A DNA stretch of 64,000 bases from the NCBI GenBank assembly GCA_002422165.1, contig DITQ01000006.1, forward strand, positions 25,384 to 89,383. The letters run 5' to 3'. The DNA is from Candidatus Pacebacteria bacterium UBA6180 (lineage in GTDB: Bacteria; Patescibacteriota; Microgenomatia; UBA1400; PJMF01). Positions 49,102 to 64,000 of the stretch are shown piece after piece; the stretch's first letter is position 1; every line of letters begins with the position of its first letter. The notes under the pieces were generated by a model. That model was not told the origin of the DNA. It did not search any database and saw only the letters and a program-made list of their open reading frames with translations. A program made the position numbers and the translations under genes.

Positions 49102-49113
49102 CTAGGAAACATT

Positions 49114-49545: not shown

Positions 49546-49580
49546 ATTTACCGCTTTATTAACGCAAGCTCAAGAGGGGG

Positions 49581-50036: not shown

Positions 50037-50038
50037 GT

Positions 50039-50995
50039 TTACCTCCTGTTCTTGTTTTTTCTTTTTGACTTGGTGGCTCGCTTATTTTTAGGCTTTATGG
50101 GACTCGTGTTCCCTCCCAACCCTTGTAGTGCTCCAGCTAAAGACTCGCTTTCGCTTTGTTTTGTAAAAAAAGATTTCTTTTTAAGATGAATTTTTTTAGG
50201 AATAAGAGTTAACGTTTTATTGGTATTTTCAGTCAAGAACTTCCCCTTTAGAGGGCCGTAGGCGGCAACATATCTGTTCCAATAAGTTGTTAGTCCGCCC
50301 CAACCAGAAGCAAAATACTGAGTAATCATAGTAACAATTGTTCCAACCACCCAGTACAGAGCAAGCCCTGAGGGAAGTTTCATGGCTATTACGGCAGTCA
50401 TGATGGGCATCAGAAAAACCATCTGCTGCTGCATGGTGACAGCCATCTCAGCAATATCTTCCTCTTTACGATTGGCCTCTTGGACAGATTTAGACTTAGA
50501 GTCATTAGGAACGATGTCTCTGGTTTGAGTAGCAGGCAAAATCATTAAAGACAGTAAAAACTGAGTGATTCCTGCAATTATTGGCAAAACGTAAGTTTGA
50601 TCAAACTGACTTAAGTTAACCCAGAGGAAATGAAGGTTGAGCGTACCTCCATCTTCGTTAAAAAGAGCGATAATGCTCTGATAGAGAACAATTAAAATAA
50701 AAAGCTGCAGAAGTTGAGGTAGACAGCCGGCTAAAGGATTTATGTTATAACTCTTATAGAGAGCCGCTTGAGCCAACGCTAGTGCCTGTTTGTCTTTACC
50801 ATGTTTAAGTTTTAATTTTTTAATCTCTGGCTGGAGCTCTTGAATTTTTTTACTTGACTTAATGCTGGGCAGTGTTAATGGTAAAAGCACCAGGCGGATT
50901 AGAATTGTAAAAACAATAATTGTAACCCCCAGGTTGCCAAAGATGGAGTAAAGAAAAATTAAAATCGCTTGAAAGAAATTGGTGAATAAGTCCAT
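50039..50995 (-). CDS. yidC: membrane protein insertase YidC (short Gram-positive-type)
   Basis: MDLFTNFFQAILIFLYSIFGNLGVTIIVFTILIRL and GCLPQLLQLFILIVLYQ (compare GCLPMLIQMPIF). Start trimmed from the ORF track to avoid a 125-nt overlap with yidD. Confidence 0.85.
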   Translation of the reverse strand: MDLFTNFFQAILIFLYSIFGNLGVTIIVFTILIRLVLLPLTLPSIKSSKKIQELQPEIKKLKLKHGKDKQALALAQAALYKSYNINPLAGCLPQLLQLFILIVLYQSIIALFNEDGGTLNLHFLWVNLSQFDQTYVLPIIAGITQFLLSLMILPATQTRDIVPNDSKSKSVQEANRKEEDIAEMAVTMQQQMVFLMPIMTAVIAMKLPSGLALYWVVGTIVTMITQYFASGWGGLTTYWNRYVAAYGPLKGKFLTENTNKTLTLIPKKIHLKKKSFFTKQSESESLAGALQGLGGNTSPIKPKNKRATKSKRKNKNRR

Positions 50996-51002
50996 AGTGT
51001 GT

Positions 51003-51200
51003 TTATTTGCAATGCAAGACCCTCCATAAACCTCGCAACAACCCGACAATTGTACCATTTTTTTTGATTTGCAAGGCGGTATATTCGCTGCAACTAGGAT
51101 TTTGATGACAGGCCGGACTATAACCAAACAAAGAAAACAACAAGTGGTGCTTAAAGCTATTTAAAAACTGATAAAAATTACCTGGAGATTTCATTTTCAA
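51003..51200 (-). CDS. yidD: membrane protein insertion efficiency factor YidD
   Basis: LFGYSPACHQNPSCSEYTALQIKKNGTIVGLLRGLWRVLHC matches the YidD C...C.Y...G...G......R..RC pattern. Confidence 0.7.
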   Translation of the reverse strand: MKMKSPGNFYQFLNSFKHHLLFSLFGYSPACHQNPSCSEYTALQIKKNGTIVGLLRGLWRVLHCK

Positions 51201-51546
51201 TTTTTTGCAACAAACGATTAAAGTCTTTTTCCAAATTAATAACCTCAGTGCCTGTATTAAAATCTCTCTTTAAAACAATCACTAAATCAATTTTTTTCTC
51301 AAGCGAAAATGCTTTACTTAAGATTGCTTTCTCCAAAAAAGAGTAGAGAAGACGACGATAAAAATTTCTTTTACTGGCTTTTTTAAAAATAGTTTTCGGA
51401 ACCAAGCAGCTGGCGAGCAATTGTTGATCGTTGGGACGAAAATAGGCTAACAAAGAGTTAGAACTAGCAAATTTCGAACTCTCTCTACTAAAAATTGCTG
51501 AATTTTTCTCCAGAGCGAGATTAAGGCGGTTTTTTTTGGCTATCAT
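51178..51546 (-). CDS. rnpA: ribonuclease P protein component
   Basis: Basic 122-aa protein with KKNRLNL...FSRE...KRNFYRRLL, located between rpmH and yidD. Confidence 0.75.
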   Translation of the reverse strand: MIAKKNRLNLALEKNSAIFSRESSKFASSNSLLAYFRPNDQQLLASCLVPKTIFKKASKRNFYRRLLYSFLEKAILSKAFSLEKKIDLVIVLKRDFNTGTEVINLEKDFNRLLQKIENEISR

Positions 51547-51563
51547 TTAAATTATGACGAGTT

Positions 51564-51710
51564 TTACCAGTGCTTGGCCACCGCTAGCTTCTTGCGGTTT
51601 TTAGCACGACGTCTTTTGATAACAACTTGACCGGTAATGGTTTTCATTCTCTGTAAAAAACCGTGCATTCTCATGCGTTTTTTCTTCTTAGGATTCCATG
51701 TTCTTTTCAT
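51564..51710 (-). CDS. rpmH: 50S ribosomal protein L34 (below the ORF-track length cutoff)
   Basis: Manual translation of the reverse strand gives [48 protein letters not shown] (48 aa). Canonical position upstream of rnpA. Confidence 0.9.
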
Positions 51711-51737
51711 AGACTAGGGATTATAACACGCCAAACC

Positions 51738-52847
51738 TCAACTGTTAACTCTAAAAGGCATAGCTATATGGAAGTAGTCCTTGGTTTTTTTATCTCTAAA
51801 CATGGCTGGTTTCAGACTCTCGTTCATCGAAAACTCCAAAAGCTCTGGTTTGGTGGCGACGATAAAATCGACCAAATAATTAACATTAAAAGCAATCTCT
51901 CCGGTTTCCTTGGTTTTATTATCAATATCTATTTCACTAGAGTACTCTCCAAGAGAAGCAGACTGAGAATTAATCAACATTTTATCCTGCTCAACCCTAA
52001 ACTTAACAATATTTGAAGCATCTCTAGAAAAAATGGATGCTCTTTTAAGCTCGGTTAAAAATTCTTCACTATCAAATTCGATTTTAACCGTGAAACTTGG
52101 TGGGATAATTTTTTCATAAGGAGGAAAATCACCCTCAATCAAACGAACATACATCTCCACGTGAGCAAATTTAAAAAGAAGTTGCTTTAATTCATCCGAA
52201 ACAAAAATATCAATCAGCTCTGCCTCAGCTTGCTTAGCTATTCTATTTAGCTCCCCAAGAGCCTTGGCAGGAATCAAAACCGTTCTTTCTTGCTCTAAAA
52301 CAATATCTTTAAACAAAAGACTGCTGAGACGAAAGCCGTCTGTAGAAACAACCTCCAGACCATCTTTCTTAAAATTAAATAAAATCGAAGTTAAAACCGG
52401 TCTCGTCTGATCGGAGCTAGCACAAAAAGATACCAGGCTCTGAATTTTCTCCAAACTAGAAAGACTGATTGTCAAAGAATCTTCTTTTAGTACTGGAAAT
52501 TCTGGAAACTCATCGCTCCTCTGACAAGTCAGCTTACTAAGCGTTTTGCCCTGACTGACAACTAGAGAGTTTTCTTGTAGCTCTATATCTATTTTGCCAG
52601 CCATCAGCGAATTAATAAGGTTTCTAAACAATTCTCCATTTATAATCAGCTCTCCTTCTACTTCAACCTCTGCCATTAATTCTGTTTTGACACCCAAATA
52701 AAGATCTGTGGCTGACAGAACGACCTTGTTGTCTTTAGCTTTAATAAGTATAGAAGACAAAACAGCTATTTGAGGTTTGCTGGGAATAACCTTTTGCAAA
52801 TGATTGAGTGAGTTTTTTAAGTTTTCCGATAGAATTCTGAGTTTCAT
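51738..52847 (-). CDS. dnaN: DNA polymerase III subunit beta
   Basis: MKLRILSENLKNSLNHLQKVIPSK...LSSILIKAKDNKVVLSATDLYLGV. 369 aa. Immediately downstream of dnaA. Confidence 0.9.
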   Translation of the reverse strand: MKLRILSENLKNSLNHLQKVIPSKPQIAVLSSILIKAKDNKVVLSATDLYLGVKTELMAEVEVEGELIINGELFRNLINSLMAGKIDIELQENSLVVSQGKTLSKLTCQRSDEFPEFPVLKEDSLTISLSSLEKIQSLVSFCASSDQTRPVLTSILFNFKKDGLEVVSTDGFRLSSLLFKDIVLEQERTVLIPAKALGELNRIAKQAEAELIDIFVSDELKQLLFKFAHVEMYVRLIEGDFPPYEKIIPPSFTVKIEFDSEEFLTELKRASIFSRDASNIVKFRVEQDKMLINSQSASLGEYSSEIDIDNKTKETGEIAFNVNYLVDFIVATKPELLEFSMNESLKPAMFRDKKTKDYFHIAMPFRVNS

Positions 52848-53154
52848 ATATTTCTTTAATTAATTATATCTTTTTAGTAGTTGTAGTAGTAGGGGTTGTG
52901 TAAAAGTTGACATTTTGTTTATTCTAATCTTAAACGTAGTCAGTGTTTGTTGTTTATAAAAGGCGGTTTTTTGTTGATTATTTTGTTAATTATTGTTAAT
53001 TGTCGTTCATAAAATTAAAACCTTTTGAACAGTCCTATAATGTTTTTACGCTATTGTTAACAAGGTTTTAACTCTTTATTCACAGGTTTTTCCACATTTG
53101 TGAAAAAACACCCCGCTGAAGGACTACAATGGGCAAAAATAACCCAAGCATCAA
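52848..53154. promoter_or_regulatory. dnaA-dnaN intergenic oriC candidate: AT-rich unwinding region plus DnaA-box cluster
   Basis: DnaA-box-like 9-mers ttattcaca (53076-84), ttttccaca (53088-96) and inverted tgtgaaaaa (53099-107). Upstream AT-rich stretch with repeated ttgttaattattgttaattgt (about 52900-53030). Confidence 0.55.
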
Positions 53155-54648
53155 TTAATTTGAAATAGCCATTAAAGACATTTTCATCGCTGAAACATCT
53201 TGTTGGATATTATAGTCTAAAATAATTTCCTGCTCTATTTTTTTAACAGCATGAATAACGCTACTATGGTCTCTTCCGGAGAACCACTGACCAATTTCCT
53301 CGAGAGGGATTTGCAACTCATTGCGCAATAAAAACATAGCTACATGGCGAGCTCTAACAAGATCCTTGCTTCTTCTTTTACCGCGAACGGCGCTCTGCTT
53401 GATTCGATAATGGTTAGCTACTGTTTTGATAATGTCTTGAGGTTTGGCGCGGATAATCTTCTGTTGGTTTTGGCGCATTTCGCCCTGGAGAATTTTATCA
53501 ATCAGTGTCGAATCTAGACTTAAGCCCTGAAGTTCGACTCCAGACCTGATTTTTTTAATGATACCCTCGATTCTCCTGGCACTGTCAACTTGAGAAGCAA
53601 TTTTCTGTGCCAACTCGATAGGAATGTTTAGCTTACTTGCCTGAGCTTTGAGTAGGAAAATGGCGGTGCGCAGTTCGAAGGTGGGCTGCTGAATATCAAT
53701 CATTAGGCCGGCTTCAAAACGAGAGCGAAGACGGTCTTCTAGGAGGCTAATTTCTTGAGGGGGGCGATCAGAAGTGAGGATAATTTGAGAATTGATAGAG
53801 GTTAGAGCATTGAAGGTGTGAAAAAATTCTTCTTGAACCGAAGTTTTGCCAGCAATAAACTGAATGTCGTCGAGCAGTAGGAGTTTGGTTTTGCGGTATT
53901 TGTTTTTGAGCTGTAGGGTGTTGTGGCTTTTAATAGCCCTAACTATTTCATTTGTAAATTGTTCTCCAGAGGCATAGATTATTTCTGTTTCTGGGTTGCT
54001 GCTTAGGATGTGGTTGGCGACGGCGTGAATTAAGTGAGTCTTGCCAACCCCAACCCCACCATAGAGAAAAAGGGGGTTGTAGCTGGTGCCAGGATTGTTG
54101 GCAACGGCTGTTGCTGCTGCATGAGCCATTTCGTTGCTCGAGGACACGGCAAAACTTTTAAAGGTGTAGTCTTCACGCAAGCCAATTTGCTGAATCCTGG
54201 TTTTGAGGCGATCTACAGTATTACTATTAATGTTAGCTTTAGAAAACAACTCTTCTACAGTAGGAGAGCTGGAGGTTCCAGATTCTGGAAAGCTTTTATT
54301 GTCAGAAAGAGCTCTCTTGAGCTCGCCATAATTTTGATGATTACTGCGAATACTTCCTTGATTTAAGTCGGAGACGACAAACTCTATTTCTAAAGGCTTG
54401 TTGATGTATTTTTCAAGAGAAGTTTTAATTTGTCCATACAAATTAACCTTGAGGTTGGTGACGTGAAAGGCGGTCATGCAGTTGATGGTGGCAACAGCTT
54501 TTTGATCGTCGACAACTCTAATGGCACTAAGCGGACTAGGGGCGATCCAGGTATTAAAAAAAGCAGGGCTCAAGCTAGATTCTAAGTCAGACTTGGCCAT
54601 TTGCCAGATCTGTTTAATGGTTTCAGAGTCGTAGACTTGTTCCGACAT
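53155..54648 (-). CDS. dnaA: chromosomal replication initiator protein DnaA
   Basis: Walker A LFLYGGVGVGKTHLIHAV, sensor motifs, C-terminal DnaA-box-binding helix-turn-helix RARHVAMFLLRNEL...SGRDHSSVIHAVKKIE. Confidence 0.95.
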   Translation of the reverse strand: MSEQVYDSETIKQIWQMAKSDLESSLSPAFFNTWIAPSPLSAIRVVDDQKAVATINCMTAFHVTNLKVNLYGQIKTSLEKYINKPLEIEFVVSDLNQGSIRSNHQNYGELKRALSDNKSFPESGTSSSPTVEELFSKANINSNTVDRLKTRIQQIGLREDYTFKSFAVSSSNEMAHAAATAVANNPGTSYNPLFLYGGVGVGKTHLIHAVANHILSSNPETEIIYASGEQFTNEIVRAIKSHNTLQLKNKYRKTKLLLLDDIQFIAGKTSVQEEFFHTFNALTSINSQIILTSDRPPQEISLLEDRLRSRFEAGLMIDIQQPTFELRTAIFLLKAQASKLNIPIELAQKIASQVDSARRIEGIIKKIRSGVELQGLSLDSTLIDKILQGEMRQNQQKIIRAKPQDIIKTVANHYRIKQSAVRGKRRSKDLVRARHVAMFLLRNELQIPLEEIGQWFSGRDHSSVIHAVKKIEQEIILDYNIQQDVSAMKMSLMAISN

Positions 54649-54747
54649 ACGTTTGTTCCAATCTCTAGGGCAGTAAAAATAAAAAAATCAAAAGAATAGA
54701 ATTAGCACTCTTATACACAAAGTTTTCCACAATTGGCAAGGGGCAAT
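54649..54747. promoter_or_regulatory. dnaA upstream region with two DnaA boxes
   Basis: ttatacaca (54711-19) and ttttccaca (54723-31), both within 1 mismatch of TTATCCACA. Confidence 0.45.
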
Positions 54748-56919
54748 TTACTTTGGAGGCTTATAGTCGTTAATGCTGTAAACCCCATGCTTATCTGGTG
54801 TAAGTTTTTCGTTTTCAGTCTCGTCTCCAAAAACTGTTTTTACCTTTTGAGCTAAAAAGCCATCCTTTTTAATGGCTTCTTCAGCCTTCTGATCGGCGTC
54901 TTTGAGAGGGTCTTGCTCAACCTTTATGTCGGGGGCTTTCCAGGCGAGGTTGTTTTCTGAATCAGCGTTGACACTCGCGGTATTTTTAAACTCTTGATTG
55001 TTGTCAAGTCGTTGTTTTCGAAGTTGGCGTGCTTTTTTGTAGTTTTCAAAGCTGTCGCCGCGAGGACTCGAGGCGGCGCTAAGCGATTTTTTGATTTCCT
55101 TATCGTCTTTTTTGCGCAACATTTCTTCCGGGTTGGTGGTGATAACTTGATGTTCTTCGTCTGAAGCAATCACTCTCAGTGCCACGTGGTTTTGTCCAGC
55201 AAAAAAGATGCCTTCTCCCACATCAGAAGAAACAAGCAACTGTCGCTCACCCTCGGACAAATAGAAGGTTTGGGTTAAAATGGGGATGGAAGCGGTAGAC
55301 TGCTTCATCAGGAATTGAATAGAGGCGTTGGAAACAATGGCTTTGCCGTAATCGTTATGTAAGAAATCTTCCACGTCCTGAGTGATAGTGGTAATTCCAA
55401 GATAGTATTTGCGCGACCGTTTAACCATGGAGTAGACAAAAGCAGCGCTGTCTGGATGCATCATAAAATACCAAGCCTCATCAATAATGAGAATACGGCG
55501 CCTAAGGTTCTTTTTAACTCTTGTCCAGATAAAATCAAGGATAACATACATGGCGATAGGTCGCAGCGACTCCTCCATTTCTTTGACCGAAAAAACCGTG
55601 AACGGAGACTTGATGTCTATGTTGGATGCCTGGTCAAAAATTCCACGATAAGAACCAGTGATAAATTTTTCTAAACGTGCAGCGATGTCGTCGGCATATT
55701 CTTGCTCCATACCAATGAGCGCCTTATAGAGGTCTTCCATGAGTGGGGGAGTGTTTTTTTGAGTGGCTGGGTCGGGAGTGATGCCTTTGGCTTTGTAGGC
55801 GGCAATAATGGAACGATCGAGCAAAGCCTCTTGTTGTGGGGTCATTTCGCCCAGCATGACCTTAAGCAGGCCGTGAACGGAGAGAATTTTTTGACCCAAC
55901 TCATTTTCACCCTCTTCGTAAAGGTTGGACAGATCGAAAGGGTTTATTTTCGCTTTGGAGCCAAAAGTAAAATTGATGTATTCTCCGCCAACCATTTTGC
56001 ACAGTTCCTCATACTCATGTTCTGGGTCGAGAACGATCACCTCAGCATCAAACATTAGTTGACGCAAAATTTCGAGCTTAACGGTGTAGGATTTACCAGC
56101 ACCAGACTTGGCGAATATAACCATGTTGGCGTTTTCCATTTTGAAGCGATCGAAAATAACCAGCGAATCGTTGTGTTCGTTGATCCCATAAACTATGCCT
56201 GTTTCCATGGTTAGCTCAGAAGATGTGAACGGAAAGGTGGTGGCCAAAGAAGTGGTATCCATGTTTCTGGTGACAGAAAGCTTGTCGACGCCCATGGGGA
56301 GAGTGGTTTTAAAGCCTTCGTCCATTTGTAGGGCGGATTTTTTGGAAACGATCATTAGGGCGCCGAGAGTGCTTTGAATGCTTTTAGTGATTTTGTCGAG
56401 CATTTCTTTGCTGTCGGCACGAACGGTAACATAAAGACCGAATTGGAAAAAGCGCTCTGAGCCAGCGGCCAATTGTTCGCGCATGGCTCTGGCATCACTC
56501 AGTTTGATTTCAGTATTAATGTTGCTGATTTTTCCTGAGCGAATGTCTGAAGTAATTTCTGCCTCCATCTCAGTGATTTTGCGCTTAAGGTTGTCAAGAA
56601 TATCTCCGGTGTCAGAGGGAAAAATAAACATTGAAATATTGGCTTGATGAGGGTAATTGATTAGTGGTGATAGCCAGTTGGCGGGAACGGCGCGAGGGTA
56701 GCCAGCAATAAACAGCGTTCTGGTGTAGGTGGAGTTGATTTTTTGGTAAGTGAAATCCACCTCTATTGCCTCTGGAGCAATAATGTCTTGGATGGTTACT
56801 AGGCCGCGCGAAAACTCGCTTAATTTTTCCTGAGTGTATTGATCGGCGTCAATTTTTTGTTGAGTTGCCGGATCGCTAGTGGTCTTTTTACCAAATAGAT
56901 TAAACATCTTTTGCATCAT
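54748..56919 (-). CDS. virB4: VirB4/TraE-family type IV secretion ATPase (Gram-positive-type architecture)
   Basis: N-region TRTLFIAGYPRAVPANWLSPLINYP...ISMFIFP, Walker A VIFAKSGAGKSYTVK, Walker B/DEAW motif ILIIDEAWYFM, C-terminal acidic extension. Confidence 0.8.
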   Translation of the reverse strand: MMQKMFNLFGKKTTSDPATQQKIDADQYTQEKLSEFSRGLVTIQDIIAPEAIEVDFTYQKINSTYTRTLFIAGYPRAVPANWLSPLINYPHQANISMFIFPSDTGDILDNLKRKITEMEAEITSDIRSGKISNINTEIKLSDARAMREQLAAGSERFFQFGLYVTVRADSKEMLDKITKSIQSTLGALMIVSKKSALQMDEGFKTTLPMGVDKLSVTRNMDTTSLATTFPFTSSELTMETGIVYGINEHNDSLVIFDRFKMENANMVIFAKSGAGKSYTVKLEILRQLMFDAEVIVLDPEHEYEELCKMVGGEYINFTFGSKAKINPFDLSNLYEEGENELGQKILSVHGLLKVMLGEMTPQQEALLDRSIIAAYKAKGITPDPATQKNTPPLMEDLYKALIGMEQEYADDIAARLEKFITGSYRGIFDQASNIDIKSPFTVFSVKEMEESLRPIAMYVILDFIWTRVKKNLRRRILIIDEAWYFMMHPDSAAFVYSMVKRSRKYYLGITTITQDVEDFLHNDYGKAIVSNASIQFLMKQSTASIPILTQTFYLSEGERQLLVSSDVGEGIFFAGQNHVALRVIASDEEHQVITTNPEEMLRKKDDKEIKKSLSAASSPRGDSFENYKKARQLRKQRLDNNQEFKNTASVNADSENNLAWKAPDIKVEQDPLKDADQKAEEAIKKDGFLAQKVKTVFGDETENEKLTPDKHGVYSINDYKPPK

Positions 56920-58348
56920 CCTGAATTTTTAATGGGGCCGCTTCCTCAGCAAAATTTACAGAAGGTTCTTGTGGGCTGCTGGGGGCGGCCTGACCTGCTC
57001 CAGCAGCTAAAAAAGAATTGTCTATGATTGGTGCAGTTTCAACAGTGGGAGTGTTAGGATTCACAGGAGCTTCTTGAGGAGCTGACGCAGCAGCAGCAGG
57101 TTGACTGGAAAGGGGAGTGTCTGGTTCGCTTGGGGCGCTGTCTGGTTGTAAGACTGGGCCGCCTATGAAGCTGTCCTTTTCAGCAAAAGACTGATTGGCG
57201 GGATTGGCTCCAGCGAGCAAGGTCGGATCGAGACTGAGGTTTAGATCGGGATTTGGGTCGGCTGTCACCGGCTCTGCAGGCGTGTTCTCTGCCGCGACTT
57301 CTGTCACGGGAGATTCTGCGCCTGGAAATCCTGCTGGTGGTGGAAACATCTGTGTTGGCGCCGATTCAAGCGTGGGCGACTGCGAAGACTCGGTGGCCTG
57401 AGGCTGTTCTTGAACAAACTGAACGTCTGTGAGCGTGGGCTGCTCTTGAATCGTGGGCTCGACGGGAGAACCGACGGGGCTGGTGGGGTCTTCTGCAGTG
57501 CTAAGTGTGTCGACAGGAGCGGCGGCTTGAGAAGTCTCGGAAGGAGCCATCTGACTCTGATTATCAACGAGCTGGCCTGGTTCGTCAGCAACCTGAGTCT
57601 GTCCTCCAGATGCTTGGTTTGCCGCTGCTTGATTTTGCATAATGTTGTTTAGTTGCATAAATTTTCCTCCAAAACTTGCCCGCACAAGTGGGGTAGTGTA
57701 GTTTTCGCTGCTACTAATTTCTTGTCCCTCAGCAGCCTCAGGGTTGTAATTGATATAGAAGTTTTGAATAATTTCTTGGGTAGTGAGCTGTCTGGCAAAA
57801 AGCCCAAGTCGATTAAATTGTGAGACCAGGTGGTCGCGACGAGGCTCGAGAACGTTAATGGCTTTTTCGAGCAAAATACTTTTTTCAATAAGTTCGACAT
57901 TAAAAGCTCCTTGGCCGGGTAAAACACTCGATGGAGTGATGAGCCCCATTTCGCTTGGGCTGGCAGAAGCGATGATAAAAAAGCGCTTTTGTAGGACGTT
58001 TCTTTCTTTGATCAGCCCCTCTACAAAGCTGCGGTATTTTTTAATCAGGGTTGCCCTGCGCTCTGAGCTTGCTTTGGCGATTTGTTCGTCAAGAAGCCTT
58101 AAATATTTGGTGGCGTCTTTAGTTTGTGATTGAATATTAATCTGAATGGGGTAGTTGAGAGAGTTGAGCACGCTGCCGTAGGTAAAAATAACCGCATCCT
58201 GTTCTTGTTCGGCCAGCAAGCTAAAATTCATGGTTCCTACCTGAAGAATGATGGCAGCAGAACCATCTTTAAGCAGGACCATGTCGTTGACAATGTCATA
58301 AACATCAAGAAATTCTTGAGTGGTAGAACTAATCACTTTGTCGCTCAT
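56900..58348 (-). CDS. VirB4 N-terminal (CagE/TrbE/VirB-type) domain-like protein with ~280-aa Pro/Ala/Ser/Gln-rich disordered tail
   Basis: First about 200 aa FLDVYDIVNDMVLLKDGSAAIILQVGTMNFSLL...IFTYGSVLNSLNYPIQINIQ resemble the VirB4 N-domain (compare DHIVLLEDGSIMSIARIDGVAFELEE in Agrobacterium VirB4). Overlaps the virB4 ATPase ORF by 20 nt in a different frame. Confidence 0.4.
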   Translation of the reverse strand: MSDKVISSTTQEFLDVYDIVNDMVLLKDGSAAIILQVGTMNFSLLAEQEQDAVIFTYGSVLNSLNYPIQINIQSQTKDATKYLRLLDEQIAKASSERRATLIKKYRSFVEGLIKERNVLQKRFFIIASASPSEMGLITPSSVLPGQGAFNVELIEKSILLEKAINVLEPRRDHLVSQFNRLGLFARQLTTQEIIQNFYINYNPEAAEGQEISSSENYTTPLVRASFGGKFMQLNNIMQNQAAANQASGGQTQVADEPGQLVDNQSQMAPSETSQAAAPVDTLSTAEDPTSPVGSPVEPTIQEQPTLTDVQFVQEQPQATESSQSPTLESAPTQMFPPPAGFPGAESPVTEVAAENTPAEPVTADPNPDLNLSLDPTLLAGANPANQSFAEKDSFIGGPVLQPDSAPSEPDTPLSSQPAAAASAPQEAPVNPNTPTVETAPIIDNSFLAAGAGQAAPSSPQEPSVNFAEEAAPLKIQDDAKDV

Positions 58349-58380
58349 TTTTTTTGATCCAAGCTACAGTTTACTAAAAA

Positions 58381-59232
58381 TCAGAGGTTGATTACAAGGG
58401 GCTGGAGGATTTGCCCGCTTAGCTCAAGCTCGGAGGCGGGAAAGATGACTCCGTCCTTTTCCGCAACAATCTGGTAAAAACCATCCTCCAGAGGATTGCC
58501 AAGCACGAAGTTGCCATTAGCATCACTTTTGCCAACTCGCAAGCTTTGTCCACCACGGTCTTTAGCCTCAACTAGAACATTGGCAACAGCAATGCCGTTT
58601 TGATCGACGGTTGTTCCAAAAATTTGGTTTGGCAAGTGCTCCTCAGTGATAGTTTCTCGCGGAGCCTGGAGACTGCGCACCCTGGTTTTAAGATCCGGCT
58701 TGGTTGGTTTTTGAGCTTCAATCTTAATATCTGTGTCGACAACATTTACTTCGTCGAAAGTTTCCAAAAGAGCATTGATTTTCTGATTTTCCTCTAGATC
58801 AAAATCGTCAGTCGCTTCTGCGGAAGGAATGCTTTTTAAGTATTCAAAAATGCGCTGCTTTCGCGCGGGATTAAGATTGACGTTGGGGGCAAAGTAATCG
58901 CTTTGGTTGCTGGTTACCCGATAATTGAAAAAGTCAGGAATGCGACTGCTTTTTTTCCAAAAAAACTTTGTGGGCTTGTATATTTTATTGAAAAAAGTCT
59001 TAATCCAGTGGTCGAGAGGACGCTCCTCAATAGGGACGAAGGCAACCATTGCTCCAAGTCCCACGGTGAAAAAAATTAGAGGCCACTTGACGATGCCGAT
59101 GAGATTGGTTTTAAAAATTACAAAACCAAGCACCACTGCCACTGCCATTTCAGCAAACTGCTTGAGCGTCATCTGGCCAATGAGATGAAACTTGTAGTTG
59201 GTAATATCCTGTGGAATTGGGTGTTGTTTCAT
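58381..59232 (-). CDS. PrgI/VirB3-like two-TM protein with extended C-terminal beta-sandwich (carboxypeptidase-regulatory-like) domain
   Basis: N-terminus PIPQDITNYKFHLIGQMTLKQFAEMAVAVVLGFVIF...WPLIFFTVGLGAMVAFVP fits the PrgI-family pattern (P.D.T.Y.EK.FFGLT.RQ). C-terminus GTTVDQNGIAVANVLVEAKD...GNFVLG. Confidence 0.45.
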   Translation of the reverse strand: MKQHPIPQDITNYKFHLIGQMTLKQFAEMAVAVVLGFVIFKTNLIGIVKWPLIFFTVGLGAMVAFVPIEERPLDHWIKTFFNKIYKPTKFFWKKSSRIPDFFNYRVTSNQSDYFAPNVNLNPARKQRIFEYLKSIPSAEATDDFDLEENQKINALLETFDEVNVVDTDIKIEAQKPTKPDLKTRVRSLQAPRETITEEHLPNQIFGTTVDQNGIAVANVLVEAKDRGGQSLRVGKSDANGNFVLGNPLEDGFYQIVAEKDGVIFPASELELSGQILQPLVINL

Positions 59233-59321
59233 GCTGTAAGTTTATTTTAGCAGATTTTCAACTCACATTCCCTGCGGCTGTAGCGCTGATAGAAACAGCA
59301 AGAAAAATTTTAGAGGGCAAT

Positions 59322-60344
59322 TTATTTTTCTTTAGAGACTGCCACGGCTGGAGTAATAAGTGAAGCCTGAATATTAAGGCCAGCAGAATTGGTTAGTTTG
59401 CCGCTAAAGCGATAAAAGGGGTAAGCAAGCTTCAGCTTGTCGTCGTACCTGTATTCAATCTCTGCTGAGTAAAGATTGGCTTCGTTAATCCAGTTTAAAT
59501 CGATTATTTCAACAATCTGGCTTTCTGCGCTTATGACGGAAACAATGCCATTTTTAATATTGTTTATTGCTTGATTGATGTTGAGCGGGGGAAGTTTTAA
59601 AGAAGGCTCAAATTTGTGAAAAAAGTTTTTAAAAACCACTCTTTCCAAGTCATATTTATTGTTTATTTTGCAAATAAACGGGTACTCTGATTCGTTGGTA
59701 TAGAAAACTGGAAATCCATCTAATTCATAAGTAAGAGGTATTTGTAAAATGTGAGCTTCGTTTTCAACAGTAATTTCTTGTTCTTCCTCGTTGTTTAGAA
59801 ATTCTATAGATTTCTCCTGAGGAATTAACGCCAGACCTGCGCTGTATTTTGTGTAAAAATTTAAACATGTTTGTATGGCCTCTGGCTTGAGAATGAATAG
59901 GTCGTTTTTTTCAAGATCTGACACTTCGACATAGGTGTAGTTGTTTTCGTAAGTGCTTTTGGCCAGCTGAGCGTTGTTTCCAAGCCAATAATTGAGAACG
60001 CTTTGATGAGGAATCATGTCTTTTTCATTAATGATTTGATTGGCGATTATCTCAGCAGTTGTCGATTTGTCGCTTGCAGCATAAATCTTAAAAAATTCTG
60101 GCAAAACAGGGCTTACTCCAGAAAAACTTATTTTTTTAAAAGTGCTTTGAGTTTGGTCGTAGTTGGCCGTGAAAGAATCATTTTGGAAAACAATCTTTTC
60201 CTCTTCAGGCGTAATGAGGGTTAAAATTGAAGAAATAATTAGAGCTAAGCTGGTAAAAATGAGCAGGTATTGCCAAAAGCTCAGTCTAAGCCTGAATGTT
60301 CTTTGGGTTTTGATGGTTTTTGTTTGCATATTTATTCGTAACAA
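59322..60344 (-). CDS. bitopic membrane protein in T4SS module (possible VirB8-like component)
   Basis: Single N-terminal TM WQYLLIFTSLALIISSILTLI followed by a 290-aa extracytoplasmic domain. Assignment by topology and position only. Confidence 0.3.
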   Translation of the reverse strand: MLRINMQTKTIKTQRTFRLRLSFWQYLLIFTSLALIISSILTLITPEEEKIVFQNDSFTANYDQTQSTFKKISFSGVSPVLPEFFKIYAASDKSTTAEIIANQIINEKDMIPHQSVLNYWLGNNAQLAKSTYENNYTYVEVSDLEKNDLFILKPEAIQTCLNFYTKYSAGLALIPQEKSIEFLNNEEEQEITVENEAHILQIPLTYELDGFPVFYTNESEYPFICKINNKYDLERVVFKNFFHKFEPSLKLPPLNINQAINNIKNGIVSVISAESQIVEIIDLNWINEANLYSAEIEYRYDDKLKLAYPFYRFSGKLTNSAGLNIQASLITPAVAVSKEK

Positions 60345-63300
60345 GTGGTGACACCGCTACCCTCAACGGGAGGATGTCTCCCATTATTGTCCTCTGGCAC
60401 CACGGTTTCAATAATGGATGGGCCTGGGTGGTTGAGTAGGGAAAACACTCCGCCGTGAGCCGCTCCATAATGTAGGTGGTTTCCAGAAGAAAACCCCCTG
60501 TTTCCGCTCAGGCCAATTAAATAGCCAGCTTCAACCTGAATACAGCTGCCAGGACTACTTATGCTTGGATTTGGGTCCTGAAAGTGGGCAAAGATTAGTT
60601 TCTGTTGGCCTCCATCACCATTAAAAGTCAGCGTGAAATAGCAGCCAAAACCGCTGTTAGAACAATTGACATGACAAAGCTGCCCATCATAGGGGGTAAA
60701 AACTGGGTTGCCATATAGTGCTGGTCCAAGACTTGTGCCTATATCATAGGCATCGTGGTAATAGGGGTTCTTCGGGTTTGGTCCATGGGAAAAATTGCCA
60801 TCGTATGGCAGTTGTGAGACGGTGCCTGTCATCGGCCAACAACCAGCATCCCCGCTACACTCCCCCAAACACACTCTGGCTGTAGTAATAACGTTGTCCG
60901 CGCCTTGCTGAAAAGCATTCTGGTAATAGAAATTAACTTCAATGGCATTGCTGATGGCGGTGTGGTTGTAATCGCTGCTTAAGCCATCCAGAGTATAGGT
61001 AAAGGTTAAGCTGTTGCCAGCCAAAATGACGATTTCTCCTCCGGTTGCTGCTGGAGACACTTGGGCTGATGGGAGATCACCTTCTGTTGGCAGCGGAGTG
61101 GGAGAGGCGCTAAGAGGCGGACTACTGGCTCCGCCCTGCTCATCAATAATCTTGCGAAAATATTCAAACTCTAGGTTTCTCTGACTTGGAATGATGGGCG
61201 GAGCGCGGCCTGCTTTTTCCCAGCCAGACCTGCTTTGTTTAAAAGTGGTCTCGTCACTAATGTTGATGATTTGCAAATCGAAATCTTCTTTTGGAGCGAT
61301 GGTGATCGTGTACTCAATTGACAGTGGAAAGCTTGGCTTGTCGCATTTTGACCCATCGTTTTCTGCAAGCAAGCAGCCTTTTGTGATTTTGGCGGTTTTT
61401 TTGACCTCTGCGTATTTGGAGGTTTTTTCAACCGTGTTGATAATTTCAGATTCGCTGAGGGGAAAATTGGTCAGAAAAGCTGAGTTGAGATTGGCACGAT
61501 AAAAATAACCAAGAAGGAAGATGGTTCCTGAAGCAATAACGACCGTCTGTCCCGCAATAACCATGGCAGGCGTAGCAATTTGGCTAACCAAGCTTTGAGC
61601 GGGAGGGATAGTTTGGGCTGCAGGAATGGCTGTGCTGTTGGGCGCAAATTGGTTAAAAGCTTCGTGACCGCTAAGGCTGAGGTTTTCAGCAGCACCCCCT
61701 CGACTAGAAAGTTCTTTGTTGAGGGAGGAGATTTCTCTCGCTCCGCCCAAGCCCTTGTAGATCATTGCTCCGGCAGCAAGTGCCGCCATAAGCGCTGCAA
61801 TTAGCGGTCCAAGAGTGGCCATTAGAAGAGCGAAAAGAATATAGGGCCAGTATTTTTTGATAAATTCAATGATTTGGCTGAGAACTTCATTTTCAAGAAA
61901 ACGCAGTGTGCCCGTAGCGTCAGCAGCCTTGGCCGCTTCCCAAGAAGCAAAAGCTGCTTCTGAGGCCCCGGCTGTGGCGGCGCCAGCGGTGGCGCGAATA
62001 CCCCACTTCAAGGCTTCTCTGGTAAAGCGGTTGTCAACCAAATCATCTCCACTCATTCCGCCAGGAATCTGAGTGAAAGCCTGCTGAAGCAAGCCGTCTC
62101 CCTGAGTGGCGTATGTTGGGTCGAGATAACGATTTTGACTAGGCGCAAAGGCCCTTTCGCCCAGAACTTGATTTCCCCAGATCAAAAATTCGTCAAGAGG
62201 ACTGATTTGGGGGACGATTTGTTGAGAGAAAACTTCAATGCTGTATTCAGCAGTCACGTAGCCAGGCATGTAAAACTCGAAGTAAGTTTTGAGGACAGCC
62301 TGTTGTTCTGGAGCTTCCATTTTGGCCAGTTCTGTTTCCAGCTGTTTTCCAATTAGGTCTTGTTCTTGTTTGAGAAAGCCAGCCAATTCGGGATTGTTTT
62401 TGACAGCGTCTGAGGTGGGATCGGCCAAGGCCTGTGCGACAGTTTTGCTACCAAAGTTTTTGTTTAGCTGGCGCATGTAAAGCTGTTTTGAGGTAAGAGG
62501 CTTGCCGTGCTTTGCTGCCAGATTAATTGCCTCTTCTGGCGTGAGTTTTTCTTGAGCGAATTCGGCACGAATCTCTTTGGCCCAGATGGCGCGTTTGCGC
62601 TTCCAGTAGAAGACAATGATGTTGGCCAAAGCCTCTCTGTTGTCTTTAATTTGCTTGGGAGTTAAATCAGTGCCAAAAAAGTTTTTAAGCCTTTGCCAAT
62701 CAATTTTTTGTGGGTCAGCGATTAAATATTCTGGAGGCAAGCCTTGCTGGATGTAGACGTCCGTCAAAGATTTGACGTTTTGTAGAATGCGCTCTCTAAT
62801 TTCTGGGTGTAGGTTCTGGATTGTTTCATCGAGGTGCTGGCTTAGCATCTTGTCCAGCTGCTCTTCGCTGCCGGCGACGCCCAGCTGGCTTTCGACAAGC
62901 CTGGCGAAATCAGCGTCATTTCTGCCTCGCTCGAAGACCTCCTCAGCACTCCTGGTGTCGACGACGTTGATTTGATTTTTTGTGCGCCCACCGAGCTGTT
63001 CGCCCTTGAGTTCTTGCCGCTGGTTTTTATCCAGCTCTTGCTTGAAGGCGACCGCGTCCTTGTCCTCGACCAGTTGACTGACGGCTCTATTGAGCAGTCC
63101 CATGCCGCGAATGTCGATCAGTAGGCCAAGGGCGCTTTTGTTGGCGAAGTTGACCCGCGCTGAAGTGTCCTGAACAAATCGGTCTAGACTGAATTCACCA
63201 CTTAGTATCAGAGTCTCGACTTGCGCGAAGGCGCGGTCCATGAGTTGTTGGCGGATGTCAAGCGGCAACTGATCAAAGGTCACTCGCGTGCCTGGCGACA

Positions 63301-64000
63301 AGCCCATTTGGGTTAGTGAGGCGTCGTTGAAGTAGCGACTCAAGGCCTGATTGATGGTGATGATCGAGAGCGACTGCAGGTAAAGCTTGGCTTGCGGGTC
63401 AAGCTCGGAGAGTTTGAGGGGTTGTCCGGCGGCTTGAGGTTGTTGGGGCGGCTGCTGCTGATCTGGCCGCCGCCGACTTTCGTCAGGCTGCTGCTGGGGA
63501 GGAGGGGTGTCTCCATCGCGACCAGCACTTGTGTCTTGGGCGGTTCTATCTGCTCCGAACGGAAAAGGCAAGATTCCTCCTCCTCTTCCGCCGGAAGTAG
63601 GCTGAGAGGTTTTTTCTGTTTCTTCGACCTCTGCTTCGGCAAATTCTTCTTCCAGCTCAAGAATATCAACCACCTCATCAATGCGCCTAATAATGTGCTG
63701 GCGCATGTTGAAGTCCTCCATCCGCAGAAGATCTTTTATTTCAATCTCATCTTTGCTGCTTGGGGTGACTTGAAAAATTTCAAACAAACTTTTGAGGCGA
63801 TTAAGCTGATTGATTTGTTCGAGAGTTAAGCCGAACTGGTTTGGCACTGGTCGGTAAGTTTGCTCGACAAAGTGCACAAGATCACACATGAACAAATATG
63901 GCTCAGAGTTAAAATCTGGAATTTTACCATTTTGATCTGGAACAGAGGCAGCAATGTCTGCAGAAGTGCTGAGATCAAACTCTTCAGCTGCAAAGCCAGC
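60332..64000 (-). CDS. giant T4SS-associated membrane protein with C-terminal M23 (LytM-type) peptidase domain; 5' end beyond window
   Basis: C-terminal YYHDAYDIGTSLGPALYGNPVFTPYDG (HxxxD) and GLSGNRGFSSGNHLHYG (HxH) give M23 metallopeptidase motifs. Central helices YWPYILFALLMATLGPLIAALMAALAAGAMIY and AMVIAGQTVVIASGTIFLLGYFY. P/Q-rich segment PPPQQQPDESRRRPDQQQPPQQPQ. The ORF-track start at 63895 is a TTG, and the frame stays open to position 64000. Confidence 0.6.
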   Translation of the reverse strand, partial: AGFAAEEFDLSTSADIAASVPDQNGKIPDFNSEPYLFMCDLVHFVEQTYRPVPNQFGLTLEQINQLNRLKSLFEIFQVTPSSKDEIEIKDLLRMEDFNMRQHIIRRIDEVVDILELEEEFAEAEVEETEKTSQPTSGGRGGGILPFPFGADRTAQDTSAGRDGDTPPPQQQPDESRRRPDQQQPPQQPQAAGQPLKLSELDPQAKLYLQSLSIITINQALSRYFNDASLTQMGLSPGTRVTFDQLPLDIRQQLMDRAFAQVETLILSGEFSLDRFVQDTSARVNFANKSALGLLIDIRGMGLLNRAVSQLVEDKDAVAFKQELDKNQRQELKGEQLGGRTKNQINVVDTRSAEEVFERGRNDADFARLVESQLGVAGSEEQLDKMLSQHLDETIQNLHPEIRERILQNVKSLTDVYIQQGLPPEYLIADPQKIDWQRLKNFFGTDLTPKQIKDNREALANIIVFYWKRKRAIWAKEIRAEFAQEKLTPEEAINLAAKHGKPLTSKQLYMRQLNKNFGSKTVAQALADPTSDAVKNNPELAGFLKQEQDLIGKQLETELAKMEAPEQQAVLKTYFEFYMPGYVTAEYSIEVFSQQIVPQISPLDEFLIWGNQVLGERAFAPSQNRYLDPTYATQGDGLLQQAFTQIPGGMSGDDLVDNRFTREALKWGIRATAGAATAGASEAAFASWEAAKAADATGTLRFLENEVLSQIIEFIKKYWPYILFALLMATLGPLIAALMAALAAGAMIYKGLGGAREISSLNKELSSRGGAAENLSLSGHEAFNQFAPNSTAIPAAQTIPPAQSLVSQIATPAMVIAGQTVVIASGTIFLLGYFYRANLNSAFLTNFPLSESEIINTVEKTSKYAEVKKTAKITKGCLLAENDGSKCDKPSFPLSIEYTITIAPKEDFDLQIINISDETTFKQSRSGWEKAGRAPPIIPSQRNLEFEYFRKIIDEQGGASSPPLSASPTPLPTEGDLPSAQVSPAATGGEIVILAGNSLTFTYTLDGLSSDYNHTAISNAIEVNFYYQNAFQQGADNVITTARVCLGECSGDAGCWPMTGTVSQLPYDGNFSHGPNPKNPYYHDAYDIGTSLGPALYGNPVFTPYDGQLCHVNCSNSGFGCYFTLTFNGDGGQQKLIFAHFQDPNPSISSPGSCIQVEAGYLIGLSGNRGFSSGNHLHYGAAHGGVFSLLNHPGPSIIETVVPEDNNGRHPPVEGSGVTTCYE

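What the first reader, a model, noticed from the sequence alone, without database searches (positions are those of the whole stretch)
56900..58348. VirB4 appears split: the N-terminal CagE/TrbE/VirB-type domain is a separate ORF fused to a ~280-aa low-complexity tail
The 723-aa ATPase ORF aligns with VirB4 from roughly the GYPR...W(L)xPL region onward. The classical VirB4 N-domain pattern (..VLLKDGS....L....NF.L, compare DHIVLLEDGS of Agrobacterium VirB4) instead occurs at the start of the upstream 482-aa ORF. That ORF then continues into a long Pro/Ala/Ser/Gln/Thr-rich disordered region and overlaps the ATPase ORF by 20 nt in another frame. This is either a genuine two-gene architecture with a novel disordered appendage (possibly surface-exposed or periplasm-spanning), a programmed frameshift, or a pseudogenising frameshift.
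Basis: inference. Interest (0 to 1): 0.55.

Follow-up and report, generated by a model that had tools for sequence, protein, structure and literature searches.

The report
Split VirB4: TrsD-like gene with tail
The secretion-system motor VirB4 really is encoded here as two adjacent genes, but this split (a "TrsD" gene in front of virB4) is already known and common in these ultra-small bacteria; only the long, floppy, acidic tail on the first piece has not been described.

Summary
On the minus strand, a 482-aa ORF (56900-58348) precedes a 723-aa VirB4 ATPase ORF (54748-56919) in another frame. By homology the ATPase more likely starts at ATG 56907, giving 719 aa and an 8-nt overlap.

Residues 1-226 of the upstream ORF match the first ~200 residues of full-length VirB4, and the ATPase ORF matches the rest. 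The evidence is colinear model coordinates, tiling onto an 810-aa Firmicute VirB4, natural fused relatives of 783-897 aa, and Foldseek hits to R388 TrwK.

The split is a genuine, conserved two-gene arrangement. All 76 related Patescibacteria loci keep two genes, in all three relative frames, with gaps from -1 to ~400 nt. That rules out a programmed frameshift, a pseudogene or an assembly error.

It is already catalogued as TrsD/TraD (NCBIfam NF041427) and TraC-like (Pfam PF26593). It is published as the most abundant T4SS component of Patescibacteria, next to virB4 near dnaA (PMC12102498).

The tail is 250 aa, not 280. It is A/P/Q/S/T/E-rich, has net charge -31 and no membrane segment, so it is probably cytoplasmic. 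It evolves fast but carries conserved short motifs. I found no description of the tail. Interest is low to moderate.

The parts
57671..58348 (-). TrsD/TraC-like domain (residues 1-226 of the 482-aa ORF). It is the counterpart of the first ~200 residues of full-length VirB4.
   Evidence: NCBIfam VirB4_plasma positions 102-297 of 894 and TrsD positions 21-142 of 201. 48 of 50 family members hit TrsD and 44 of 50 hit VirB4_plasma. Precomputed Pfam label PF26593 TraC-like. hhalign to Brevibacillus TraC-family VirB4 residues 19-140, probability 93.4%. 46% identity to residues 1-204 of the fused P0201. AF2 model: Foldseek top 13 hits are all TrwK/VirB4.
57674..57748 (-). Conserved segment just after the fold (residues 201-225, YNPEAAEGQEISSSENYTTPLVRAS). 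AF2 gives it low confidence.
   Evidence: Invariant or near-invariant columns N202, P203, E204, E207, G208, Q209, Y217, T218, V222 and A224. pLDDT below 50 from residue 204. Not conserved in fused relatives.
56903..57652 (-). 250-aa acidic, A/P/Q/S/T/E-rich, probably disordered tail (residues 233-482).
   Evidence: Composition, net charge -31, no hydrophobic segment, only open frame. No tandem repeats. Does not align at nucleotide level to relatives whose flanks are 70-80% identical. Tails of 12-478 aa in 76 relatives.
57215..57247 (-). Conserved island DLNLSLDPTLL inside the tail (residues 368-378).
   Evidence: MAFFT alignment of 17 tails from the window's clade; consensus l.Ld..L.
56921..56956 (-). 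Conserved near-C-terminal motif NFAEEAAPLKIQ (residues 465-476; clade consensus DF[AST]E[ED]I.PLQ).
   Evidence: More distant relatives carry related motifs: PFVVEEL near the end and [LM]PP[LIV][PA]E[IL] at the end.
56900..56919 (-). Gene junction. The TrsD-like stop TAA is at 56900-56902. Candidate VirB4 starts are ATG 56919, 56916 and 56907; 56907 is favoured.
   Evidence: Sequence. Relatives' N-termini. 719-aa gene call. AGGA lies 11 nt upstream of ATG 56907.
54748..56907 (-). VirB4 ATPase lacking the first ~170-200 residues of canonical VirB4. N-terminal NLFGKK motif at 56884-56901. Core is residues 47-607. Walker A GAGKS at 56089-56103. A ~116-aa charged C-terminal extension lies at 54751-55098.
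   Evidence: CD1110 family positions 170-734 of 752, 392.5 bits against a cut-off of 325; TIGR00929 positions 236-726 of 792. PDB 4ag5 E 6e-49. 62% identity to P0201 residues 213-774. Brevibacillus VirB4 residues 205-798.
58381..59232 (-). PrgI/VirB3-like membrane protein immediately upstream, the likely partner of the N-terminal VirB4 piece.
   Evidence: PF12666 PrgI, residues 5-89, 29.1 bits against a cut-off of 27. Same gene order in relatives.
60332..63895 (-). Large protein of the same cluster with a weak C-terminal M23 peptidase match (context; possible cell-wall hydrolase role).
   Evidence: PF01551, residues 1060-1148, 24.9 bits, below the cut-off of 28.7. An M23 protein also sits next to VirB4 in L084 and in Brevibacillus pBbsI.

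Best explanation
This is the chromosomal, origin-proximal type IV secretion cluster of a Patescibacteria (Pacebacteria/Microgenomatia-type) genome. The gene order is PrgI(VirB3-like), TrsD-like, VirB4, dnaA.

VirB4 is encoded in two pieces. The 482-aa ORF supplies, in trans, the first ~200 residues of the VirB4 N-terminal domain. The 719/723-aa ORF supplies the rest of that domain plus the ATPase.

Shown here: the two ORFs tile a complete VirB4, the split is conserved, and fused versions exist in relatives.

Inferred from the R388 structure (PMC9259494): VirB3 wraps around the VirB4 N-terminal domain, and that domain mediates VirB4 dimer contacts. By analogy, the TrsD-like piece docks non-covalently on VirB4 and links the ATPase hexamer to PrgI at the membrane. 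The overlapping stop and start suggest co-translation of the two genes (inferred).

The 250-aa tail sits exactly where the covalent link would be. Fused relatives have a 10-113-aa Pro-rich linker at that position. I read the tail as an expanded, fast-evolving cytoplasmic interdomain linker left on the N-terminal fragment. It keeps a few short conserved peptide motifs that probably tether it to VirB4 or another partner. This last step is inference only.
For: Colinearity:
- In NCBIfam VirB4_plasma, the 482-aa ORF covers positions 102-297 and the ATPase ORF covers 282-893 of 894.
- On Brevibacillus pBbsI TraC-family VirB4 (810 aa), the N-domain profile matches residues 19-140 (hhalign probability 93.4%, E 2.4e-7). 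The ATPase ORF matches residues 205-798 (E 1e-45).

Natural fusions:
- P0201 (787 aa) is 46% identical to the N-domain over residues 1-204 and 62% identical to the ATPase ORF over residues 213-774.
- It is seen on 3 contigs from independent samples, next to PrgI and dnaN/dnaA.
- About 45 further fused clusters of 783-897 aa exist, beside split relatives at 76-88% identity.

Structure:
- The N-domain model's top 13 PDB hits are all TrwK/VirB4 (best E 2.4e-3, probability 1.00; unrelated hits start at E 0.1).
- The fused P0201 model (pLDDT 78) matches full-length TrwK at TM 0.72-0.73 over ~838 columns.

Conservation of the split:
- 76 of 76 loci keep two genes.
- The family has 1,549 50%-identity clusters, nearly all 200-600 aa.

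Literature: TrsD is remotely homologous to the VirB4 N-terminus, is the most abundant T4SS component in Patescibacteria, is mostly adjacent to virB4, and is essential in Ca. S. epibionticum; the T4SS lies near dnaA (PMC12102498).

Tail:
- 93% of tails of 50 aa or more are net negative.
- The C-terminal tip x[LIVM][PA]E[ILV] occurs in 81 of 229 tails, against 0.18 expected from shuffling.
- The tip is kept through abundant synonymous codon changes.
- Conserved islands exist in the window's clade.
Against: - No direct evidence that the two proteins bind each other or PrgI. No complex could be modelled with the tools available.
- The N-domain model has only moderate confidence (pLDDT 67), and its Foldseek E-values are weak (about 1e-3).
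- The score against the curated TrsD model (23-26 bits) is far below its 200-bit cut-off.
- The window's own tail lacks the terminal [LM]PP[LIV][PA]E[IL] tip seen in most relatives, and its internal motif is degenerate (FAEEAAPLK against FAEEITPLQ).
- Family members with no tail at all (205-235 aa) exist, so the tail is not needed for the basic function.
- Disorder is inferred from composition only.
Confidence: 0.85

Rival explanations
1. A programmed ribosomal frameshift (+1 at GTT TAA, or -1 upstream) joins the two ORFs into one full-length VirB4 with a long internal linker.
For: The two ORFs overlap in different frames. Fused proteins exist in relatives. In 11 relatives the stop is followed directly by an in-frame ATG.
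Against: - There is no X XXY YYZ heptamer in the overlap (sequence).
- The shift needed is +1, at GUU-UAA. From general knowledge, re-pairing of tRNA-Val on UUU is poor.
- Among 76 relatives the relative frame is 0, 1 or 2 in 35, 20 and 21 loci, and gaps run from -1 to ~400 nt, so no recoding signal is conserved.
- Within the window's own clade all three frames occur.
- 53 of 76 stops are TAA.
- VirB4 has its own conserved N-terminal Met..LPFGKKK motif and a Shine-Dalgarno-like AGGA.
Confidence: 0.02
2. The split is a pseudogenising frameshift, or an assembly or sequencing error, in a gene that was originally single.
For: The window comes from a metagenome-type sequence. The low-complexity tail is a place where indels could arise.
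Against: - The split is present in 76 of 76 related loci from many studies.
- The 482-aa protein and 15.1 kb of surrounding DNA are identical in an independent Logan assembly.
- Both products are under strong purifying selection. The N-domain is 55-87% identical across loci, and the VirB4 segment EFSRGLVTIQDIIAPEAIEVDF is almost invariant.
- The tail frame is the only one of six without stops.
Confidence: 0.02
3. The 482-aa ORF belongs to an unrelated family that merely neighbours VirB4, and the VirB4-like pattern at its start is chance.
For: The local Pfam scan gave no hit. PDB sequence searches gave none. The alignment to Agrobacterium VirB4 is not significant.
Against: - Colinear, non-overlapping coverage of one VirB4 model.
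- tblastn and hhalign matches to the N-terminus of a fused Firmicute VirB4.
- Natural fusions in relatives.
- Fold matches only to TrwK/VirB4.
- 48 of 50 family members hit TrsD and 44 of 50 hit VirB4_plasma, with no families outside the VirB4/TrsD group.
Confidence: 0.03
4. The split is real, but the tail is a functionless, neutrally drifting remnant of the interdomain linker. It has no binding role, and its conserved islands are phylogenetic inertia.
For: - Tail length varies from 0 to 488 aa, and tail-less members exist.
- The tail is unalignable at nucleotide level between close relatives.
- Fused relatives have Pro-rich linkers of 10-113 aa at the same place.
- The window's copy has lost the terminal tip.
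Against: - The terminal tip is found about 450 times more often than in shuffled tails (81 against 0.18).
- The tip is kept through synonymous changes.
- Islands DLNLxLDPxL and DFxEEIxPLQ persist where everything around them has diverged.
- 93% of tails keep a negative net charge.
- The open frame is maintained over up to 478 codons.
Confidence: 0.3

Closest known systems
TrsD/TraD of Gram-positive conjugative plasmids (pGO1 type; NCBIfam NF041427) followed by the TrsE/TraE VirB4-like ATPase
   Same: A small protein homologous to the VirB4 N-terminus is encoded directly upstream of a VirB4-type ATPase that lacks that segment. An example read here is Peribacillus pSHB26: trsD 219 aa plus a DUF87 ATPase of 656 aa. 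48 of 50 family members match the TrsD model.
   Different: The match is remote (23-26 bits against a 200-bit cut-off). The locus is chromosomal, next to dnaA, with no relaxase seen in the window. The protein carries a 250-aa acidic low-complexity tail that the ~200-aa plasmid TrsD proteins lack.
TrsD homologues of the Patescibacteria T4SS (Quinonero-Coronel et al. 2025, PMC12102498); Pfam PF26593 TraC-like
   Same: This is the same thing. That paper reports 2,272 TrsD homologues in 2,221 assemblies, mostly adjacent to virB4, with the cluster near dnaA/dnaN/rnpA and the gene essential in Ca. S. epibionticum ML1. The window's exact protein carries the precomputed PF26593 label.
   Different: The paper does not mention disordered tails, their motifs, or fused versus split states (searched). 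It states that no function is assigned to TrsD.
Full-length VirB4: TrwK of R388 (PDB 7O41, 8RTD), Agrobacterium VirB4, Brevibacillus pBbsI TraC-family protein
   Same: The two window ORFs together cover the whole fold. The fused relative P0201 superposes on TrwK at TM 0.72-0.73. The window ORFs match Brevibacillus VirB4 residues 19-140 and 205-798.
   Different: Here the chain is broken after about 200 residues, inside the N-terminal domain (TrwK residues 15-400; PMC9259494), and the break carries a ~280-aa linker-like insertion split between the two genes.
Fused TrsD-VirB4 proteins of Amesbacteria/Microgenomates (P0201, P0266-P0288 and others)
   Same: Orthologous locus (PrgI, VirB4, M23 peptidase, near dnaN/dnaA). 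62% identity in the ATPase part.
   Different: A single 783-897-aa chain with a 10-113-aa linker. It lacks the long tail, and in P0201 it also lacks the first ~46 residues of the split VirB4.
Bacterial SSB C-terminal tail (disordered Pro/Gln/Gly-rich linker plus a conserved acidic-hydrophobic tip). This is an analogy from general knowledge, not a homology claim.
   Same: A variable-length, low-complexity linker ending in a short conserved acidic-hydrophobic peptide at or near the C-terminus.
   Different: No sequence relation and no known partner. The window's own protein has the motif 6 residues before the end rather than at the end.

Membership tests
TrsD/TraD family (NCBIfam NF041427) | Score at or above the curated cut-off of the family model (200 bits) | tested here: not met
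   23.3 bits (E 4.6e-5) for the whole ORF and 25.7 bits for the domain alone. 48 of 50 relatives match at E <= 1e-3, best 5.6e-9. This makes it a remote relative, not a member by NCBI's threshold.
TrsD/TraD family (NCBIfam NF041427) | Encoded directly upstream of a VirB4-type ATPase that lacks the matching N-terminal segment | tested here: met
   Overlapping genes. The ATPase ORF starts at position 170 of 752 in CD1110 and 236 of 792 in TIGR00929. The same layout occurs in Peribacillus pSHB26 and in 76 related loci.
Pfam PF26593 TraC-like | Match to the family model | tested here: met
   A precomputed hit without a 'weak' mark on the identical protein and on 119 of the 120 best homologues. The local Pfam copy does not hold this model, so it could not be re-run.
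VirB4 N-terminal segment (homology of the 482-aa ORF's domain) | Colinear with, and not overlapping, the ATPase ORF on a full-length VirB4 | tested here: met
   VirB4_plasma positions 102-297 and 282-893. Brevibacillus VirB4 residues 19-140 and 205-798. P0201 residues 1-204 and 213-774.
VirB4 N-terminal segment (homology of the 482-aa ORF's domain) | Same fold as the N-terminus of a solved VirB4 | tested here: inconclusive
   Foldseek's top 13 hits are all TrwK (probability 0.87-1.00), but E is only 2e-3 to 8e-2, TM (query-normalised) is 0.33-0.38, the model pLDDT is 67, and the aligned TrwK residues are not reported. Indirect support: fused P0201 matches TrwK over its full length at TM 0.72-0.73.
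   No hit in the 482-aa ORF even at E <= 10. The hit is in the ATPase ORF, residues 140-208 (22.3 bits against a cut-off of 21).
VirB4 ATPase (NCBIfam NF045971, CD1110 family), for the 723-aa ORF | Score above the curated cut-off, and a Walker A motif | tested here: met
   392.5 bits against a cut-off of 325. GAGKS at residues 273-277. PDB 4ag5 VirB4 E 6.4e-49.
Programmed ribosomal frameshift site | A slippery sequence in the overlap, with frame relation and signal conserved in orthologues | tested here: not met
   No X XXY YYZ heptamer. Frames 0/1/2 occur 35/20/21 times and gaps run from -1 to ~400 nt.
Tethered C-terminal peptide on a disordered linker (SSB-like design; functional analogy only) | A conserved terminal peptide that binds a defined partner | not testable with these tools
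   Conservation of the tip and the islands is shown. Partner binding needs complex modelling or experiments.

The most novel reading that the evidence does not exclude
The acidic disordered tail is not a leftover. It is a functional tether whose conserved short motifs dock on VirB4, PrgI or a substrate. Those motifs are DLNLxLDPxL, DFxEEIxPLQ and, in most relatives, a C-terminal [LM]PP[LIV][PA]E[IL] tip. Docking would hold the two halves of a split motor together, or recruit cargo to the essential Patescibacteria T4SS. Repeated fission and fusion of VirB4 within Microgenomatia would then mark an evolvable regulatory joint in the machine.
Probability: 0.3. Interest if true: 0.45.

Novelty: new member of a known kind. 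Interest (0 to 1): 0.25.

Why it matters

This analysis shows that TrsD plus the downstream ATPase tile a complete VirB4, and that close relatives carry the same protein fused. That gives TrsD a concrete structural role: the first half of the VirB4 N-terminal domain, the part VirB3 wraps in R388. The role can be tested directly.

For annotation, such ORF pairs should not be flagged as frameshifted pseudogenes.

The variable acidic tail and its conserved peptide motifs are a small, apparently undescribed addition. They could point to how the two halves are held together. The basic architecture, however, is already known.

Tried and rejected
- Local Pfam scans of the 482-aa ORF, its domain and three homologues gave nothing relevant. 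The local library lacks PF26593.
- PDB sequence searches found nothing useful: the single domain gave no hit, and the family profile hit only low-complexity matches to capsid proteins.
- Tandem Repeats Finder found no repeat in the tail.
- Guglielmini et al. 2014 is cited for the TrsD-VirB4 homology, but its main text does not contain 'TrsD'. The 2025 nomenclature review does not mention TrsD. A whole-word literature search for TrsD returned almost only unrelated acronyms.
- I considered that the conserved C-terminal tip reflects the Shine-Dalgarno sequence of virB4. I rejected this because the distance to the start varies from 0 to over 300 nt and the codons vary synonymously.
- I considered stop-codon readthrough for the 11 loci with an abutting in-frame ATG. 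I rejected it because 10 use TAA and one uses TAG.
- I could not model a TrsD-VirB4-PrgI complex, because the structure tool takes single chains only.

Full report
**What is in the sequence**

On the minus strand the window holds this gene run:
- a large protein with a weak M23-peptidase match (60332-63895)
- a 340-aa unknown (59322-60344)
- a PrgI/VirB3-like protein (58381-59232)
- the 482-aa ORF (56900-58348)
- a 723-aa VirB4-type ATPase ORF (54748-56919)
- dnaA, dnaN, rnpA, yidC and jag

The two ORFs of the finding overlap by 20 nt in different frames. Close relatives' VirB4 proteins begin MFNLFGKK or MLNLFGKKK. An independent gene call gives 719 aa. AGGA lies 11 nt before ATG 56907. The real start is therefore probably 56907, with an 8-nt overlap (ATGTTTAA). 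A Logan assembly of SRR5323109 is 100% identical to window 48900-64000, junction included.

**Is the upstream ORF the missing head of VirB4?**

Yes. Five lines of evidence agree.

1. Model coordinates. Against the NCBIfam model VirB4_plasma (894 positions), the 482-aa ORF covers positions 102-297 and the ATPase ORF covers 282-893. The ATPase ORF enters other full-length VirB4 models late: CD1110 at position 170 of 752, TIGR00929 at 236 of 792, and TraC-F at 242 of 800.
2. Family-wide matches. Of 50 family members scanned, 48 match TrsD/TraD, 44 match VirB4_plasma and 8 match the CD1110 VirB4 model. No families outside the VirB4/TrsD group match.
3. Tiling on a fused Firmicute VirB4. On the 810-aa 'TraC family protein' of Brevibacillus pBbsI, the N-domain profile aligns to residues 19-140 (hhalign probability 93.4%, E 2.4e-7). 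The ATPase ORF aligns to residues 205-798 (E 1e-45).
4. Natural fusions in Patescibacteria. P0201 (787 aa) matches the N-domain over residues 1-204 at 46% identity. It matches the ATPase ORF over residues 213-774 at 62% identity. It lies between PrgI and an M23 peptidase, near dnaN/dnaA, on contigs from independent samples. About 45 further clusters of 783-897 aa are fused in the same way, beside split relatives whose ATPase part is 76-88% identical to P0201.
5. Structure.
   - The AF2 model of the N-domain (pLDDT 67) has TrwK/VirB4 of R388 as its 13 best PDB matches. The best has E 2.4e-3 and probability 1.00; unrelated folds start at E 0.1.
   - The AF2 model of fused P0201 (pLDDT 78) matches full-length TrwK at TM 0.72-0.73 over ~838 columns.

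- The Pfam CagE_TrbE_VirB domain (PF03135) is in the ATPase ORF (residues 140-208 match profile positions 125-196), not in the 482-aa ORF. The split-off piece is the segment N-terminal to that domain. It is labelled PF26593 'TraC-like' in precomputed annotations. My local Pfam copy lacks that model.
- The resemblance to Agrobacterium VirB4 (HLSDHIVLLEDGS, residues 21-82) is indeed the best hhalign stretch. At 2% probability it is not evidence by itself.
- The tail is 250 aa, not ~280.

**Two genes, a frameshift, or damage?**

I fetched 80 related genome loci; 76 of the loci in hand hold both genes.
- In all 76 the TrsD-like ORF ends at a stop before or at the VirB4 start.
- The relative frame is 0, 1 or 2 in 35, 20 and 21 loci.
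- The distance from stop to start runs from -1 to about 400 nt.
- The stops are TAA 53, TAG 21 and TGA 2.
- All three frames occur even within the window's own clade.
- The overlap holds no X XXY YYZ heptamer.
- Both proteins are well conserved. The N-domain is 55-87% identical, and the VirB4 segment EFSRGLVTIQDIIAPEAIEVDF is almost invariant.

A programmed frameshift, a pseudogene and an assembly artefact are therefore all rejected. This is a stable two-gene arrangement.

**Comparison with what is known**

The arrangement is already described.
- NCBIfam has a 'TrsD/TraD family conjugative transfer protein' model. Annotated plasmids show trsD (219 aa) directly before a 656-aa DUF87/VirB4 ATPase (Peribacillus pSHB26).
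- Quinonero-Coronel et al. 2025 (PMC12102498) report TrsD as the most abundant T4SS component of Patescibacteria. They describe it as remotely homologous to the N-terminal portion of VirB4, mostly adjacent to virB4, and essential in Ca. S. epibionticum ML1. They also report that the cluster often sits near dnaA, dnaN and rnpA, exactly as here.
- By NCBI's own threshold the window protein is only a remote relative (23-26 bits against a cut-off of 200).
- The family found here is large: 1,549 clusters at 50% identity with E <= 1e-3.

**How it most likely works**

In the R388 structure the VirB4 N-terminal domain spans residues 15-400. VirB3 wraps around it, and it forms the whole interface between the central and outer VirB4 subunits (PMC9259494). 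The TrsD-like piece corresponds to roughly the first half of that domain.

I infer that it binds the ATPase ORF's product non-covalently and links the ATPase to the PrgI/VirB3-like protein encoded just upstream. The overlapping stop and start fit coupled translation. None of these contacts could be tested here.

**The tail**

Properties of residues 233-482:
- composition A 15.6, P 14.8, Q 9.6, S 9.6, T 7.6 and E 7.6 %
- 34 acidic and 3 basic residues
- no Arg, Cys, His, Trp or Tyr
- no hydrophobic stretch (maximum 19-residue Kyte-Doolittle value 0.57)
- no tandem repeats
- the only one of six frames without stops

With no signal peptide or membrane segment, and attached to a cytoplasmic domain, a periplasmic or surface location is unlikely.

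Across 76 loci the tails are 12-478 aa (median 172). In 256 family proteins, 93% of tails of 50 aa or more are net negative. Tail-less members of 205-235 aa also exist.

Between the window and relatives whose flanks are 70-80% identical in DNA, the tail does not align at all. Short motifs persist all the same:
- Most relatives end in [LM]PP[LIV][PA]E[IL] or PxPVEL. This tip is found in 81 of 229 tails, against 0.18 expected from shuffled tails.
- The tip is kept through many synonymous codons.
- More distant members carry PFVVEEL near the end.
- In the window's clade two islands are conserved: DLNLxLDPxL (window 57215-57247) and DF[AST]E[ED]I.PLQ (window NFAEEAAPLKIQ, 56921-56956).

Fused relatives have a Pro-rich linker of 10-113 aa at the same position. 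In some, that linker contains LPAFLQKK-like motifs resembling the conserved N-terminal LPF[GFL]KKK of split VirB4.

My reading is that the tail is the expanded interdomain linker, left on the N-terminal fragment by the gene fission. It keeps short docking peptides. A purely neutral remnant remains a fair rival (about 0.3).

**Verdict**

The split is an ordinary, published feature of Patescibacteria and pGO1-type T4SSs.

What I did not find described:
- the explicit tiling of the two ORFs onto a complete VirB4
- the coexistence of fused and split forms in close relatives
- the acidic tail with its conserved peptides

Interest is low to moderate.

Noticed in passing
window 17890-17964 (+): The only tRNA in the window is tRNA-Ile with anticodon TAT (UAU). 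From general knowledge, this is an uncommon way for bacteria to read AUA, since most use a lysidine-modified CAU tRNA.
   Followed up: no
window 54751-55098 (-), VirB4 residues 608-723: The VirB4 ORF has a ~116-aa charged (K/E/D/N-rich) C-terminal extension beyond the part that aligns to fused P0201 and to Brevibacillus VirB4. Amesbacteria VirB4-only proteins are just 580-640 aa.
   Followed up: partly
window 56884-56901 (-); VirB4 N-termini in L001-L083: Split VirB4 proteins start with a conserved M..L..LPF[GFL]KKK peptide (window: MFNLFGKK). A variable polar linker follows, then the nearly invariant EFSRGLVTIQDIIAPEAIEVDF. The hydrophobic-plus-polylysine head looks like a membrane or partner-binding motif.
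   Followed up: partly
window 58381-59232 (-): The PrgI/VirB3-like protein carries a C-terminal CarboxypepD_reg-like beta-sandwich (residues 203-261, 29.1 bits, below the cut-off of 32.3). That is an unusual addition for a VirB3-type protein.
   Followed up: no
proteins P0303, P0304, P0307, P0313, P0314, P0355, P0357, P0366, P0382: Several Patescibacteria VirB4 homologues of 1158-1215 aa contain an intein with a homing endonuclease (PF14528 and PF14890).
   Followed up: no
P0201 and P0266-P0288 against P0289-P0384; L084, L085: Fused (783-897 aa) and split VirB4 forms coexist among Amesbacteria/Microgenomates whose ATPase parts are 76-88% identical to P0201. This implies recent or repeated gene fission or fusion.
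   Followed up: partly
loci L005, L008-L011 and many others: Many public genome records carrying this Patescibacteria T4SS/dnaA locus are titled 'uncultured Pseudomonadales', 'candidate division TM6' or 'Methylococcaceae'. These look like mislabelled MAG titles.
   Followed up: no
window 57674-57748 (-), residues 201-225 of the 482-aa ORF: The segment YNPEAAEGQEISSSENYTTPLVRAS is among the most conserved parts of split-form TrsD-like proteins. AF2 nevertheless predicts it with low confidence, and it is not conserved in fused relatives. It is a candidate in-trans docking segment.
   Followed up: partly
window 60332-63895 (-) and beyond the window end: The large cluster protein has a Pro/Gln-rich low-complexity N-terminal region and a weak C-terminal M23 peptidase match. 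The gene call on the identical Logan contig is 1283 aa, so the gene probably starts beyond base 64000.
   Followed up: no
window 1-64000: G+C content varies strongly along the window. It is 0.32-0.37 at 4-14 kb, against 0.48-0.51 at 16-24 kb and at 30-36 kb. Within the 482-aa ORF the tail is 0.54 against 0.43 for the domain, while GC3 is the same in both (0.43-0.44).
   Followed up: no
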